DNA from: Escherichia coli
GTDB taxonomy: Bacteria > Pseudomonadota > Gammaproteobacteria > Enterobacterales > Enterobacteriaceae
Reading direction: 5' to 3' (one strand)
Length of the DNA stretch: 64,000 nt
Assembly (NCBI RefSeq): GCF_011045215.1
Contig: NZ_CP049201.1
Shown: piece after piece, positions 33,001 to 39,000 of the stretch
Layout: each line of letters begins with the position of its first letter
How positions within the stretch are numbered: the stretch's first letter is position 1
Position numbers: made by a program

Positions 33001-36000
33001 TGAGAGGGTTAATTACCGGAGCCTGGTACAGTGCCTTAGGGTTGGAACTGGAAGATCACCAGGGATTAGTTCATTTCCCTACTAATGGGCGTTACATCCT
33101 GGATATTAACGATCCTGATTTCCCTGAGCAGTACCAGCGCTTATTGGTACGTCTGGATTATTTGACGAAGCTCGACACTAAAGCATCAGGCCAGCGTAAC
33201 TTTGGCTACAGCGGTTTTTGACCTATTGTAACTATAAGGTGATTTATTATGTATATAGAATCTTACCAGAAAAAATACTTTTCCTTGTGATTTGGTACTG
33301 AGTTAACATTTAGTACAGTATTAGGGCCTTCATTGTCAGGCCCTGCTTTGCAATTTTTCAAAGCTCCAGGTAAGCTTTTTTCCGATAAACATGCTGATAT
33401 CAAACACCGCTTCTTTACCAGCACTATCAAAAATAATTCTGATATTTGGTTTTTATCTCCTTGTCTATAGATTCGTCACCAATACTGTAGCTTGTATCAT
33501 TACTTCCTCAATTAAGTGGTTAAAGCTCTAATGCTAAAAGAATGCAATATTGGTAGAGAGTTTTTTGAGCACCATGACAGATTTTCTTTACTCAGTATTT
33601 CATCAATAACAGACTTAGCAAATGGAATGGTGAGCAAGAATGAAGCTTTTTTATCTTTATTTGGAACTATGCGGTTACCACCATTTACCCAATGTGCTTC
33701 AAGTCTGACATTTAGATCTTGCCATTTTACACCTTTTCGAACACGTTCTTTTTTTAATGAATAGAAAAAAGTTGATTTACCATTTGGTGTCGGGTGGTTA
33801 TCCATTAACATTAGCATAAGAGGGATTCCCCAGTCAGGCATATAGCTATAATGCCAGATCCCAAAACTATCCGCGATCCTGACCATCCGAATGAATGATT
33901 TTTGATCAAGCTTCCCTTCACCTCCCCTTAATGCTCTACAAACAACCCAGGCCCGATAGAGGTTATCAAATTGCATGAATTGATTTCGGCGAGATACTGC
34001 AATTTCTGCTGAAGCAGAGCGTTCATTACCTGAAAAACCAGAAAAACGTTGAGATCTTGCGCTTAGGGGACAGAACTCTTTATTTTCTGGTGAAGCGGAA
34101 TGAGAGAATCTGGGGCTATAATCAGGATTGGGAGTGACTAATCCGCTATCATGGACAGGTTTCTCGCATGAGATACAACGTAATGGTGGGTAGTCATCTC
34201 GTGATATACCCTTAACTTTTTGTGCATATGCATCAATACTGATTTCAATCCAATAACCTTTTTCCAGAACTTCAGCTTTATTCATAATGTGTTGCCTCTG
34301 ATATTGTTCATGTGATTATTGATAATAATAGATTACAGATAAAAAAGAAGAAATATGTATTTAAATCTTGTATTACAATGTATATATACAATTCAATCAA
34401 AAATTAGTGTTTTTAATCTCATGGCATAATCAGAAAACAGCAGAACGGGGTATTTGTTTTAATGGCGCCTCGATAAAAATTGAGATAACAGTTGCAGTTT
34501 AAAACACCTCTATTTCGTGGTTCTGAATATAGAGGCTTTACGATTTATTAAAATATTACTAAAATATGTTCATATTCCGATGCACAGACCTTTCACTTCT
34601 GCTTTTTCTCATTTTTGTCAGTTGTAGACTCAGTTTTTTTACGTTTTAACTTTAATATCATCTTTCCATTGCTAAATTCAATTTCTTCGTAATCGCGGAA
34701 AACAGTAATAACCAGAGCAATACCAATGGATGCTGCAGCAATAATAACAGCGATATCAAGTCCGGATAATGCAGCTAAAGAACTAACAGCTAAAACAGAA
34801 CCTCCACCAGTGAGTGGAATAGTAGCACAAGTTGCGATCATGGCAGCAATAACAACACCACTTACTTTTGTTACAGCCTTTGCTTTTTTAATTTTATTTG
34901 CTAACTCTCCTTCAATAATTATAATTTCAGCTCTGCTGTTTTGAGCTTTTTCGAGTTCATCCTTCGATCTTACAGTAAATTCAGCCATAATTATCCTGGT
35001 CTTGTAACATTTATGCCATCTTAAGTACTTTTATTTAGAGCGTTAACACGCTCCGCAGTCTATTAAACGCAACCGCAATAAAAATTAATGTATTTTACCA
35101 ATCGTAGTCAACTAAAAGTTTCTTAATACCCTGAACGCTACATCCCATACTTCTACTACGATTTGAGCAACATTTTGGTATTGACACTGCAGTTTTCCCA
35201 ATGAAATATGGGCTTATTCAGCTTTTATTGTTTCCTGAATCTATATTATGCGTACACGAATTGATTATCTGGTGAATAAATACTGTTTTACAGAACTGAA
35301 TGAATCTCCACGTCTTCGTCGGCAGTGGCAGGATGTTCTGGATGAGTGCCGGCAGACAGGGGCCGGGCCAGAAGAACGGCTGCGTATTGCACTGCTGAAT
35401 GTGGATTACGTCACCAGTTTTGAGCTGCCTTTTCGCTTGCTGCTTACCCGGACACCACAACTGATTGCCGCGCTGCGTGAAGAATGGGGCATCAGCCAGA
35501 AAAATGTGGTGTTCAACGATAAACGGTTTGGCTGCGTGTACAGCCTGAAGGCCAGCCTTTCGGGTGTGCCGGATACATTCCGGTATCATCTGTCTCACCG
35601 TATTCGTCGCGTGGTTGGGAATGAAAACACATCATTGCCATATCAGCAGGTTGCCCGGGAAGTGAAAGCGTCCCGTGAACGGCTGAAGTATGCGCTGGAA
35701 GCAGGTTTACTGGTGACCGCACTGGACGGGCTGTTCTGGTCTGGCAGTCAGCGTATTGCGGCTGATGTCCTGAGATTAAGACAGAGCGGAATGCCGGTAG
35801 TGACAACGAATGTGGAGGTGCACGATAACCTGACGGGAACAACCCGCAAAGTGCCGGCATACCATCTCTGATACGACCATCAGGGGGGGCTCTGGCAGCA
35901 GTATGACATTCTTTATACTTTTACCCGTGCCTGAAAACATGTGCTAAGGAAACGGGAATGGCAAGGTCCGATTACGATATTATCAATCTGTCTCTGGAAC

Positions 36001-39000
36001 ATGAACTGAATGAGTGGCTGGCAGAGAGAGGTTATGCCGGACTGGCGGATAACCGGAATCGCCTGGCAGAAGTTGTTACCCGCAGATTGCAGGACAGCTT
36101 TTATATAAACGTTTCCTGGGATGCGCTGAACACGGCATACAGTGAACACCCGGAGTGGTTTTCTGGGCTTGTCTTCGGGGATGAGAATTAAAAAGTGGAT
36201 TATGCTGCCATCAGGCAGTGTGATTGCCGGCAGGAATTTCGTTTTATTCTGTTTCTTCCCGGGGTTCGGGTTTGAATTTTCCTGGAAAGTTGTACATTGG
36301 CCGCATACAGGGATGTGGATAGCCGTCCCGCATAAATACCACCCGGGTTTCCTCAACACTGGTTACGGTGACAAGCGCACCATGATCGTCTCTGTATCGC
36401 TGACCGACTTTGGGTAACGGGATATCTTCAGACATAACTTCCGGAACAATGTTGTTTTACACGATATTGTTGTTATTACCCGGTACGTTGCGGATGCTTT
36501 TTCGGGGTATGTTAATTTATTGTTTTGTTGATTTTTTTTTGCTTTTTGTGCATTCCTGTCACTCTGATTTCTGCCTTTTACCTCACCTCCCTTTCTTCTG
36601 ACTTTCGCTGAGAACCGCTCAGATTCTGTACTGCATAAACTTCAATGATTTTAATCAAAAATCACTTTTTTCAGTGTTGACTGGCTGTATTTGAAGCATC
36701 TTACGGAATAATTTTCTGTCGTTTTTTGTTCTCCGTGGTTATAAGTTTTGCAATATGCTGCTTTTGCGATATTAGTTGGAATAAATAACTACGTGATAAC
36801 TACATATCGATCGATATGTCTGCAATATTGAGAATTTTCAGATCTTCATTCTATAATGATCAAAATTAAACCAATTCAGAGTTGACAAATTTATTACTCA
36901 ACATTCTGGTACCGGTTGATGCGGGTAAATACCGGAAGGGCGGTAGCGTACCATCGCAAAACATGGTGGGAGGTATCGTCAGGAGGCTGGTGATTGTTGG
37001 TATGACATGAATAAAAGGTTTTTCGTTTGACTGGAAAATTATGTTGCAGGAACGAGAGGGCTGAGGAACAAAGCGTATTCCGGCGCTGTCCGTCCTTGCT
37101 GTCACTGACACTGATGTCTGTTTTATTATCGCCTTTATCTCTTCAGGCCGCGGATGTCCGGCGTAGCGGAGATAATGCATTTATCATTCAGCAGCAGCGT
37201 CAGGAAGCCCTTGAGCAACAACTGACGCCTTCAGCCCCTGATGTTCGCCTTTCTGCACCTGGCTCTTTTGCCCGTAAGATTAATTTTCCTGTTGAAACGC
37301 CCTGTTTTCAGATTAAACAGACGGAACTGGAGGGGGCTGATGCGTTACCACACTGGCTGCCTTTACAAAAAATCGCCAACGGGGCGGTCGGGCATTGCCT
37401 GGGGGCGAAAGGAATTAATCTGCTGATGAGTACATTGCAGAACCGTCTGGTCGATCATGGTTATGTCACCACCCGTGTTCTGGCACCTTCGCAGGATTTA
37501 AAAAGCGGTATCCTCCGGCTGGTTGTTATTCCCGGTGTTGTGCGACATGTGCGTCTGACACCGGACAGTGATGACTATATTCAGTTGTATTCCTCATTCC
37601 CGGCACACGAAGGTTCTCTGCTGGATTTACGGGACATTGAGCAGGGGCTGGAGAATATGCAACGACTGCCGGGTGTGCAGGCTGATATGGAAATTGTACC
37701 CGGTGAGCAGCCAGGGGAAAGTGACATTCTTATTACCCGCAAACAGGACAAATACTGGCGACTGGGGTTTTCGCTTGATGATTCAGGTACCCGCAGCACA
37801 GGGCGTTATCTCGGTGGTATAACATTTTCTCTGGATAATCCTTTTTCCCTGAGTGACCTGCTGTATGTTTCTGCCACCCGTAATTTTCCACATTACGGGG
37901 GTAAGGGCAGTAAAAACTACACGGCCCATTACTCTGTGCCTTTCGGCTACTGGCAGTTTTCCGTCACCGCCAGTGATTACGATTACCATCAGACGGTAGC
38001 TGGTGCGGTTGAGGATTACCAGTACAGTGGCGAGAGTCAGAATCTGGGTATGCAGCTGAGCCGGGTACTGCACCGTAACGGGACGCAGAAAACGGTGCTG
38101 ACCTACGATGTTCAGGCCCGCAGGTCGCGTAACTACATTAATGATACGGAAATCCAGGTGCAGCGCCGGCAGACAGCGGCCTGGCGACTTGGGCTGCAGC
38201 ACCGTCATTATATTTCTCAGGCCACACTGGATGCTGGTGTCAGCTGGCAACGGGGAACCCGCTGGTTTGGTGCACAGCCGGCGCCGGAAGAAACGTTCGG
38301 TGAGGCAACGGCGCTCAGTAAGATCCTGCAGTTGAATGCATCCTTTAATCTGCCCTTTACCCTTGCAGGGCAGCCCTTCAGTTATTCCTTCCGGTATCAG
38401 CGCCAGCTGAGCAATACCCCGCTGACCCCACAGGAACAGTTTGCCATCGGTAACCGCTGGACGGTTCGTGGTTTTGACGGGGAGCGAACGCTGAATGCCA
38501 GTAACGGCTGGTATATCCGCAACGACCTGGCCTGGCGTACGCCACTGCCGGAGCAGGAGTTATATCTGGGAATGGATTACGGCGAGGTGGGGGGAGCCGG
38601 CAGTGAATACCTGGTGGGACGTCATCTGGCTGGTGGTGTTGTGGGGCTGAGGGGGCAACTGTTCAGTACGGATTATGACGTTTTCATCGGTCGTCCGTTT
38701 TCAAAGCCGGCGGGTTTTATGACGAGTGATGTGACAGCCGGTTTTAATCTGTTCCGGGATTTCTGAGAAAGTTTCATGCGTAACGGGAAATATGACGTTC
38801 TGAGTCCCCTGTATTCCGGTGAGCCGGTCAATGAGGCGGAAGTCCTGGGGGCGGCCGTCTGGTTGTGGATGCACTCCCCCCTGCATCGTGATGCGCCACT
38901 GCATACCCTGCCGGACCTGCTGCTGCCGGTGATTAAGCACCGACAGTATGTGGTGGCAACAGAGCAGGGGCGACCGGTTTTCTTCATGAGCCAGGCCTGG

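What the first reader, a model, noticed from the sequence alone, without database searches (positions are those of the whole stretch)
35248..36435. Block of three small unassigned genes with core-like GC directly upstream of the CDI locus
A 207-aa and a 77-aa gene on the plus strand and a convergent 63-aa gene have GC content different from the AT-rich cargo to their left, suggesting a separately acquired module. None matches a family I can name. They could be regulators of the adjacent CDI operon or an independent small system.
Basis: inference. Interest (0 to 1): 0.45.

Follow-up and report, generated by a model that had tools for sequence, protein, structure and literature searches.

The report
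Island backbone genes flanking weapon promoter
The three small genes are real, conserved backbone genes of a common E. coli genomic-island family (two look like DNA-binding or regulatory proteins), and they sit beside a promoter matching one shown elsewhere to be iron- and methylation-controlled, which in different strains precedes either a type VI secretion system or, as here, the contact-dependent inhibition (CDI) operon.

Summary
Three ORFs (207 aa +, 77 aa +, 63 aa −) lie at 35248-36435, with GC 0.49-0.54 against 0.30-0.36 on the left, and all are under purifying selection.

The trio occurs in 2,292 of 5,426 complete E. coli genomes. It is almost always followed by a contact-dependent weapon locus or its stub:
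- class IV cdiB: at least 1,038 genomes, 123 of them intact
- a second cdiB lineage: 393
- sci1 tssB: 202, including EAEC 042

The spacer right of the trio carries a near-identical copy of the characterised sci1 T6SS promoter (Fur box over the −10, three GATC sites in 53 nt). Homology ends about 18 nt after the −10, where the cdiB leader begins. So cdiBCAI here is probably controlled by Fur and Dam. The trio is not CDI-specific, and a local regulatory role is plausible but unproven (about 0.3).

The parts
35248..35871 (+). 207-aa ECs1377-family protein; two tandem winged-helix (HTH_39-like) units, putative DNA-binding protein
35958..36191 (+). 77-aa orphan protein, essentially restricted to Escherichia islands; fold unresolved
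36244..36435 (-). 63-aa DUF4222 protein, the 'RgdR truncate' type of O157 OI-43/48 and SpLE1; divergent from the weapon-operon promoter
   Evidence: PF13973 at 81.5 bits against a cut-off of 27. Flockhart et al. 2012 describe 63-aa RgdR truncates z1197/z1636/ecs5415 on these islands. dN/dS 0.06-0.15.
36436..36876 (.). AT-rich spacer that travels with the trio; best conserved in its distal half
   Evidence: 76-82% identity to the spacers of O157, ETEC4068 and RIVM (tssB context). The core 36804-36875 is about 92% identical to EAEC 042.
36828..36857 (+). Sigma70-type promoter TTGAGA-18-TATAAT, homologous to the EAEC sci1 T6SS promoter; predicted promoter of cdiBCAI
   Evidence: 11/12 consensus match. 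The same -35 and -10 occur in EAEC 042 upstream of tssB. The -10 is invariant in 12 loci.
36852..36870 (+). fur1-like Fur box TATAATGATCAAAATTAAA overlapping the -10
   Evidence: 19/19 identical to EAEC 042 and 13/19 to the Fur consensus, as published for fur1.
36809..36861 (.). Three GATC (Dam) sites at 36809, 36841 and 36858, spanning 53 nt (equivalents of G3, G2, G1)
   Evidence: Same spacing (32 and 17 nt) as EAEC 042. They lie in ATCGAT, TCAGATC and TGATCA, matching the BspDI, Hpy188I and BclI sites used by Brunet et al. 2011. Invariant in 12 loci.
36877..37095 (+). cdiB-specific 5' leader, nearly invariant among class IV loci and stubs; contains a 42-codon ORF (36882-37010)
   Evidence: Homology with the tssB contexts ends at about 36876. 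Leader alignment A4. Predicted fold is not exceptional, z=-1.5. The true cdiB start is probably a TTG near 37096 (and the translation).
37027..38766 (+). cdiB (TpsB transporter) of a class IV cdiBCAI locus
   Evidence: ShlB, POTRA_2 and POTRA_3 domains. Class IV locus as in Halvorsen et al. 2021.
38776..39303 (+). cdiC (HlyC-type lysine acyltransferase)
   Evidence: PF02794 at 3.7e-32.
39319..48639 (+). cdiA (3,106 aa), not analysed further
   Evidence: ORF list.

Best explanation
The three ORFs are functional backbone genes of the E. coli P4-integrase genomic-island family (SpLE1/OI-43,48; PAI I-CL3; the EAEC pheU island). They are not a CDI accessory and not a separately acquired system.

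Together with the AT-rich spacer on their right they form a conserved platform of about 1.6 kb. Its distal end is a copy of the sci1 T6SS promoter.

Shown by sequence: the -35, the -10, the Fur box over the -10 and three GATC sites match EAEC 042. Homology stops about 18 nt after the -10. Behind that point different islands carry the sci1 T6SS, class IV cdiBCAI (this window), or decayed stubs of either.

Inferred: cdiBCAI here is transcribed from this promoter. It is therefore repressed by Fur in iron-replete conditions and shows Dam-dependent ON/OFF heterogeneity, as demonstrated for sci1.

The trio encodes a tandem winged-helix DNA-binding protein (ECs1377 family), an Escherichia-only 77-aa protein, and a 63-aa RgdR-like DUF4222 protein.

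Inferred: these are island-encoded transcription modulators. My split is about 0.3 that at least one tunes the adjacent promoter, about 0.5 that they act elsewhere (in trans or in island maintenance), and about 0.2 for other roles.
For: - Real genes under purifying selection.
- Family hits.
- Tandem winged-helix model, pLDDT 92.7, with only wHTH structural neighbours.
- It is present in 2,292 of 5,426 genomes with sharp boundaries.
- It is followed by class IV cdiB or a stub in at least 1,038 genomes, 123 of them intact; by a second cdiB lineage in 393; and by tssB in 202.
- EAEC 042 has the trio, then 506 bp, then an intact sci1 cluster.
- The promoter core is about 92% identical, the fur1 box 19/19, and the GATC spacing identical.
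- These elements are invariant in 12 loci.
- Published Fur/Dam mechanism for sci1.
- Backbone neighbours recur across islands: the Gp2-like gene, zinc-ribbon genes, Hha, the GTPase, ibrAB and perC.
Against: - No expression or binding data exist for any trio gene.
- Fur/Dam control of cdiBCAI is inferred from promoter identity only.
- The distal fur2 region, reported in 2026 as important for bistability, has diverged in the window.
- Many class IV loci have a weaker -35, TTGCTG.
- The cdiB leader of about 230 nt could add its own control.
- The 207+77 pair also precedes a CDI locus that lacks this promoter. That result does not fit a purely promoter-centred view and leaves a direct weapon-locus link open.
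- ECs1377 homologues show some enrichment next to T6SS/TpsB loci in other genera, about 10 of 70.
Confidence: 0.6

Rival explanations
1. Dedicated local regulators of the weapon slot. The ECs1377 protein (with or without the 77-aa and DUF4222 proteins) binds the spacer and activates or de-silences whichever weapon operon follows, CDI or T6SS. This would resemble RovC, which is encoded upstream of Yersinia T6SS4.
For: - Co-oriented and immediately upstream of three kinds of weapon loci in E. coli, through two different junctions.
- ECs1377 homologues at about 70% identity precede sci1-type T6SS clusters with the same gene order in Kosakonia and Citrobacter.
- About 10 of 70 species-level loci have T6SS or TpsB genes within 4 kb, from several lineages.
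- A distant homologue follows VgrG-PAAR.
- DNA-binding fold.
- RgdR is a proven regulator.
Against: - Most family members are not near weapon loci, and no neighbour dominates.
- The trio stays intact beside dead cdiB stubs.
- Class IV CDI works from its native promoter on a plasmid in K-12, although whether K-12 or that clone carries the trio was not checked.
- Mutating the Fur boxes alone makes sci1 constitutively ON.
- No shared operator motif was found between genera.
Confidence: 0.3
2. Island maintenance proteins. The tandem winged-helix protein acts in replication, partition or excision control of the island, alongside the neighbouring Gp2-like Rep and the YfjI/DUF3987 primase-like genes.
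For: - Fixed position after the inovirus-Gp2-like gene in every island seen.
- Distant homologues lie beside a prophage integrase, ParA/RecT, ArdC, RadC and YhgA-like genes.
- Two-winged-helix architecture recalls iteron-binding Rep proteins and ScpB. RepE appears only among weak Foldseek hits.
Against: - No significant full-length structural match to Rep or ScpB proteins.
- Chromosomal homologues in Kosakonia, Citrobacter and Enterobacter sit without any mobility genes nearby.
Confidence: 0.15
3. Trans-acting modulators of host or virulence regulons, in the way RgdR activates LEE/T3S, with no functional tie to the neighbouring operon.
For: - RgdR-family membership of the 63-aa gene, and the known additive behaviour of prophage regulators.
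- Retention under purifying selection where the weapons are dead.
- Presence in 42% of E. coli genomes.
Against: - The 63-aa form lacks about a third of RgdR and has no RGD tripeptide.
- No data on the truncates.
- This does not explain the conserved synteny with weapon loci.
Confidence: 0.2
4. An independent small system (toxin-antitoxin or anti-phage defence), or decaying hitch-hikers.
For: Small adjacent genes on a mobile island. The 77-aa gene shows deletions and frameshift variants, and all three are pseudogenes in one strain.
Against: - No PADLOC, toxin or antitoxin family hit.
- The three genes do not co-occur outside Escherichia.
- Low dN/dS for the 207-aa and 63-aa genes.
Confidence: 0.05

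Closest known systems
[not shown]
   Different: In O157, IS629 sits in the spacer and cdiB is truncated at nt 626 and chimeric. Here the CDI locus is intact. The literature treats the three genes only as hypothetical boundary ORFs.
EAEC sci1 T6SS promoter (Psci1; Brunet et al. 2011, and the PLoS Biol 2026 follow-up)
   Same: Same -35 TTGAGA, -10 TATAAT, fur1 box (19/19) and three GATC sites with identical spacing and restriction-site contexts. The same trio lies immediately upstream.
   Different: The downstream operon is cdiBCAI rather than tssB onwards. The leader is about 160-230 nt instead of about 80 nt. The fur2 region has diverged. No experimental data exist for this copy.
RgdR (ECs1581), prophage regulator of LEE/T3S
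   Same: The 63-aa protein belongs to what Flockhart et al. call the RgdR family (the OI-43/48 and SpLE1 'truncates'), and it is DUF4222.
   Different: 63 aa against 99 aa. No RGD motif. No function tested. I did not align it to RgdR directly.
RovC of Yersinia pseudotuberculosis (activator encoded upstream of T6SS4)
   Same: Analogy only: a small DNA-binding protein encoded just upstream of the weapon cluster it controls (mentioned).
Class IV cdiBCAI of E. coli STEC_O31 (Halvorsen et al. 2021)
   Same: Same locus type next to the trio: cdiB with a UUG start, HlyC-type cdiC and a large cdiA. It is expressed from native elements.
   Different: That work did not address the upstream genes or iron, Fur or Dam control.

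Membership tests
NCBIfam NF052300 ECs1377 family | Whole-protein score above the curated cut-off (190 bits) over the full 190-position model | tested here: met
   316.2 bits, E=5.7e-95, residues 16-205 matching model positions 1-190.
Winged helix-turn-helix DNA-binding proteins (Pfam HTH_39, PF14090) | Sequence match above the Pfam gathering score | tested here: not met
   15.5 bits against a cut-off of 21.3, E=0.015, C-terminal residues 168-207 only. Some homologues carry a precomputed PF14090 hit.
Winged helix-turn-helix DNA-binding proteins (fold level) | Three-helix bundle plus beta-hairpin wing, with structural similarity to known wHTH domains | tested here: met
   [not shown]
Pfam DUF4222 (PF13973) | Score above the gathering threshold (27 bits) | tested here: met
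   81.5 bits, residues 6-57 matching model positions 1-52 of 53.
RgdR family (Flockhart et al. 2012) | Full-length protein of about 99 aa with an RGD tripeptide at residues 20-22 | tested here: not met
   63 aa, with no RGD in the sequence (RDD at 15-17, RDG at 36-38). The paper itself calls the 63-aa island copies truncates.
RgdR family (Flockhart et al. 2012) | Activation of LEE/T3S expression | not testable with these tools
   Needs genetics. It has been reported only for full-length ECs1581.
sci1-type (Psci1) Fur/Dam promoter | -10 overlapped by a Fur box (13/19 to consensus) that contains GATC-I; GATC-II and GATC-III flanking the -35; all three GATC sites within 53 nt | tested here: met
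   Window 36809-36870. Identical box and spacing to EAEC 042, matching the published description.
sci1-type (Psci1) Fur/Dam promoter | Second, distal Fur box (fur2/F2) upstream of the -35 | tested here: inconclusive
   EAEC 042 has an 11-12/19 match at the expected place. The aligned window sequence has none at 11/19 or better.
sci1-type (Psci1) Fur/Dam promoter | Fur binding, iron-dependent repression, and methylation-dependent ON/OFF switching | not testable with these tools
   Experimental. Shown only for EAEC sci1.
Class IV CDI locus (cdiBCAI), the neighbour and not the trio | TpsB transporter, HlyC-type acyltransferase CdiC, and a large CdiA | tested here: met
   ShlB/POTRA domains and HlyC domain. 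A 3,106-aa ORF follows. CdiA domains and cdiI were not examined.
Toxin-antitoxin or anti-phage defence system | Match to a known defence, toxin or antitoxin protein model | tested here: not met
   No PADLOC hit at E<=0.01 for any of the three proteins or their left neighbours. No Pfam toxin or antitoxin domain.

The most novel reading that the evidence does not exclude
The ECs1377 tandem winged-helix protein, helped in Escherichia by the 77-aa and RgdR-like proteins, is the dedicated regulator of a swappable 'weapon slot'. In this reading a conserved regulator-plus-promoter cassette sits on Enterobacterales islands and chromosomes, and T6SS or CDI operons are exchanged behind it. This would add an island-encoded control layer on top of the Fur/Dam epigenetic switch.
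Probability: 0.25. Interest if true: 0.7.

Novelty: new member of a known kind. Interest (0 to 1): 0.45.

Why it matters
The genes themselves are ordinary island ORFs that already have family labels. The useful result lies around them.

First, a class IV CDI operon sits behind what is, base for base, the Fur/Dam bistable promoter characterised for the EAEC sci1 T6SS, and the swap point is just after the −10. No search I ran found any report of how class IV CDI is regulated natively. This gives a concrete, testable prediction: iron limitation induces it, dam and the GATC sites set ON/OFF subpopulations, and different contact-dependent weapons are exchanged behind one regulatory platform.

Second, about a thousand E. 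coli genomes, including O157:H7, carry stubs of such weapons at this site. That marks it as a long-lived turnover hotspot.

Third, the ECs1377 family gets a first structural assignment (tandem winged helix) and a candidate functional context. The trio genes lie immediately upstream of sci1 in EAEC 042, the reference strain for sci1 work, yet I found no report that tests them.

Tried and rejected
- PADLOC on the trio and its left neighbours: nothing.
- Rfam on 34900-37200 at E<=1: nothing.
- PDB sequence searches with the 207-aa and 63-aa proteins and with the 207-aa family profile: only noise.
- Foldseek against the PDB for the 207-aa model: no hit at E<=1e-3.
- Search for a shared operator between the E. 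coli spacer and the Kosakonia, Citrobacter, SF-173 or Phytobacter leaders, by k-mers, Fur-box scan and GATC positions: nothing convincing. Only a partial resemblance of the Kosakonia -10 region.
- Idea that the clpA-like ORF marked a T6SS in the window: rejected. The left part of the window is core E. coli, hcp/hcr through macAB to clpA.
- Idea that ECs1377 is an obligate T6SS-cluster gene: rejected by the species-level scan, where about 10 of 70 loci qualify and no neighbour dominates.
- Structured-RNA idea for the conserved cdiB leader: z=-1.5, not significant.
- tRNA search: none in the window, explained by partial serW 3' ends.
- Direct alignment to RgdR (ECs1581): not done, because the word-indexed search returned no full-length RgdR.
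- Whether K-12 carries the trio: not checked.
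Full report
**1. The observation**

GC is 0.49-0.54 across the block. It is 0.30-0.36 in the 1 kb to the left and 0.37 in the 591-bp spacer to the right.

They behave as genes. Nei-Gojobori dN/dS between copies from different islands is as follows:
- 207 aa: 0.16-0.24
- 63 aa: 0.06-0.15
- 77 aa: mostly 0.23-0.43, on small counts

**2. Identity of the proteins**

The 207-aa protein is a full-length member of NCBIfam NF052300, the "ECs1377 family" (316 bits against a cut-off of 190), and of phrog_24243. Pfam gives only a sub-threshold HTH_39 hit at its C-terminus.

The 63-aa protein is DUF4222 (81.5 bits). Flockhart et al. 2012 describe 63-aa "RgdR truncates" (z1197, z1636, ecs5415) on OI-43, OI-48 and SpLE1. 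Full-length RgdR (ECs1581, 99 aa) activates type III secretion in EHEC. The copy here has no RGD motif and has never been tested.

The 77-aa protein has no family. It is essentially confined to Escherichia (141 clusters) and has common in-frame deletion variants. Its model is poor and uninformative.

**3. Where the block belongs**

The window's left part is core E. coli, running up to clpA. The island then begins with a P4-type integrase, AlpA, a DUF3987/YfjI-like gene and a YagK/YfjJ ("inovirus Gp2") gene. This is the clpA–serW site used by SpLE1.

By megablast the block occurs in 2,292 of 5,426 complete E. coli genomes at about 93% identity. Homology starts and stops at the gene ends. Its left flank varies between islands, but it always follows the Gp2-like gene region. 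So the trio is backbone, and the AT-rich DNA on its left is the variable part. This is the opposite of "a separately acquired module".

**4. Linkage to CDI and to T6SS in E. coli**

| Downstream locus | Genomes |
|---|---|
| Window-type (class IV) cdiB, complete | 190 |
| Complete class IV cdiB adjacent to the trio | 123 |
| 5′ stubs of cdiB, cut at nt 877, 626, 457, 437 or 129 | about 1,090 more |
| DUF4222 end and cdiB start at the same spacing (synthetic junction query) | 1,038 |
| 207+77 pair, no DUF4222, then an unrelated cdiB–cdiA locus | 393 |
| Trio followed by tssB | 202 |
| Trio followed by tssB and tssC | 121 |

- O157 strains add to the junction count, but with IS629 inserted in the spacer.
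- The unrelated CdiB is 29% identical to the window's CdiB.
- In EAEC 042 the complete trio lies 506 bp upstream of the intact, experimentally studied sci1 T6SS cluster.

Thus in E. coli the trio is nearly always followed by a contact-dependent weapon locus or its remains, but not specifically by CDI.

Stubs of VasL, ImpA-N and other POTRA genes at the same site show repeated turnover. They occur even downstream of sci1 in strain 042.

**5. The spacer is the sci1 promoter**

The scan finds a strong σ70-type promoter at 36828-36857 (TTGAGA-18-TATAAT). Alignment of spacers from cdiB contexts and tssB contexts shows an invariant core.

Against EAEC 042:
- The core 36804-36875 is about 92% identical.
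- The box TATAATGATCAAAATTAAA (36852-36870) is identical, and matches the Fur consensus at 13 of 19 positions.
- The three GATC sites (36809, 36841, 36858) have the same 32- and 17-nt spacing and span 53 nt.
- They sit in ATCGAT, TCAGATC and TGATCA.

These are exactly the features Brunet et al. 2011 reported for Psci1: fur1 over the −10 and containing GATC-I, GATC-II and GATC-III flanking the −35, 53 nt overall, and BspDI, Hpy188I and BclI assays. The 2026 study confirmed them as the basis of ON/OFF heterogeneity.

Homology between the cdiB and tssB contexts ends at about 36876, roughly 18 nt after the −10. From there a cdiB-specific leader begins. It is almost invariant among class IV loci and stubs.

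I infer that cdiBCAI here is transcribed from a Psci1-type promoter and is therefore likely Fur-repressed and Dam-modulated.

Caveats:
- The distal fur2 region has diverged.
- Many class IV loci carry TTGCTG at the −35.
- The long leader may add control of its own. Its predicted fold is unremarkable (z = −1.5).
- The class IV paper reports expression from "native regulatory elements" in K-12 and mentions neither iron nor Fur.
- Text searches found no paper linking sci1 promoter control with CDI.

**6. Beyond Escherichia**

Only the 207-aa gene is found outside Escherichia. Homologues at about 70% identity sit directly upstream of T6SS clusters in Kosakonia and Citrobacter. Those clusters have the same gene order as sci1 (tssB-tssC-tssK-tssL-ompA-hcp-clpV). 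In Phytobacter the homologue occupies the same chromosomal site with different cargo.

The exhaustive representative search shows a small family of 115 representatives. Its distant members lie beside a prophage integrase, YhgA-like genes, ArdC, or ParA/RecT. One lies in a VgrG–PAAR–X–RadC arrangement.

A scan of species-representative genomes returned 79 loci across Enterobacterales. Among the roughly 70 loci with enough downstream sequence:
- 7 have T6SS genes within 4 kb downstream, from several lineages.
- 3 have a TpsB/CdiB gene within 4 kb downstream.
- No neighbour family is shared by more than 8 loci.

Weapon loci are therefore enriched near this family, but they are a minority context. 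The enrichment could reflect either function or a shared preference for variable regions.

**7. How it most likely works**

Shown:
- The genes are conserved and under purifying selection.
- Two have DNA-binding or regulator-family features.
- The trio and the spacer travel together.
- The spacer ends in a copy of Psci1.
- The cargo behind it is exchangeable.

Inferred:
- Fur and Dam control cdiBCAI here.
- The trio products are island-encoded transcription modulators.

I put about 0.3 on at least one of them acting on the adjacent promoter. Evidence for this is the synteny through two junction types and the cross-genus T6SS adjacency. Evidence against has three parts:
- The trio stays intact beside dead stubs.
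- Class IV CDI is active in K-12.
- Fur-box mutations alone give constitutive sci1 expression.

I put about 0.5 on roles elsewhere, either as trans-acting regulators like RgdR or in island maintenance next to the Gp2-like and YfjI-like genes. The remaining 0.2 covers other roles. A toxin-antitoxin or defence system has no support.

**8. Verdict**

The genes are known island ORFs with family labels, so I class them as a new member of a known kind. The added value has three parts:
- the tandem winged-helix assignment for the ECs1377 family
- the near-universal association of the trio with weapon loci or their stubs in E. coli
- the finding that this CDI operon sits behind the Fur/Dam sci1 promoter, which is directly testable

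Noticed in passing
window 23407-23555: Three copies of GTTCACTGCCGTACAGGCAGCTTAGAAA (the third is degenerate) separated by spacers of about 32 nt. This is a miniature type I-F-style CRISPR array between clpA and the island integrase.
   Followed up: no
window 23553-23610 and 23733-23790: A direct repeat ending in TGGCGGTGAGGGGG, which looks like the 3' end of a tRNA-Ser (serW, minus strand) present twice as att-like remnants. ARAGORN finds no intact tRNA anywhere in the window.
   Followed up: partly
window 36877-37095: The cdiB-specific leader is almost invariant across class IV loci and even cdiB stubs, so it is more conserved than the trio coding sequence. It contains a 42-codon ORF (36882-37010) that is annotated in some RefSeq genomes. 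The predicted RNA fold is not exceptional, z=-1.5.
   Followed up: partly
window 37027-37100: The mechanical cdiB ORF starts at TTG 37027. The signal-peptide-like sequence ([17 protein letters not shown]) and Halvorsen et al.'s note of a UUG 18 nt upstream of the annotated ATG suggest the real start is a TTG near 37096. RefSeq splits this intact ORF into a 'POTRA pseudogene' plus a 360-aa ShlB protein.
   Followed up: partly
window 33512-34988: Two minus-strand genes sit in the AT-rich DNA left of the trio. One is a 257-aa protein with no family hit. The other is a 131-aa membrane-like protein matching phrog_25580. They form the variable cargo at this position.
   Followed up: no
window 49366-50286: An ORF downstream of cdiA/cdiI has DUF6862 and an Endonuclea_NS_2 domain. 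It looks like an orphan cdiA-CT toxin module. An Ail/Lom outer-membrane gene (52297-52854), IS66 and IS21 elements follow.
   Followed up: no
L015 10749-11569; L012 15008-15265; L112 18071-19438 (EAEC 042): Stubs of cdiB/POTRA genes are fused to stubs of VasL and ImpA-N T6SS genes. They recur in many genomes, even downstream of the intact sci1 cluster in strain 042. O157's 'POTRA domain protein' is a chimera of cdiB nt 1-626 and another TpsB fragment.
   Followed up: partly
L020 and L021 (marine metagenome contigs): A 36%-identical ECs1377-family gene follows VgrG and PAAR genes with a 2-nt gap and is followed by a convergent RadC gene.
   Followed up: partly
Proteins P0164, P0194, P0201 (alignment A3): A 62-aa variant of the 77-aa protein lacks residues 21-35 (LAERGYAGLADNRNR) in frame and is widespread (P0194 is seen on 944 contigs). 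Other variants carry compensated frameshifts in the middle of the protein.
   Followed up: no
L013 9002-10176 (strain RIVM_C037884): In this strain all three trio genes are frameshifted pseudogenes and only a lone tssB remains downstream. This shows the module can decay together with its weapon locus.
   Followed up: no
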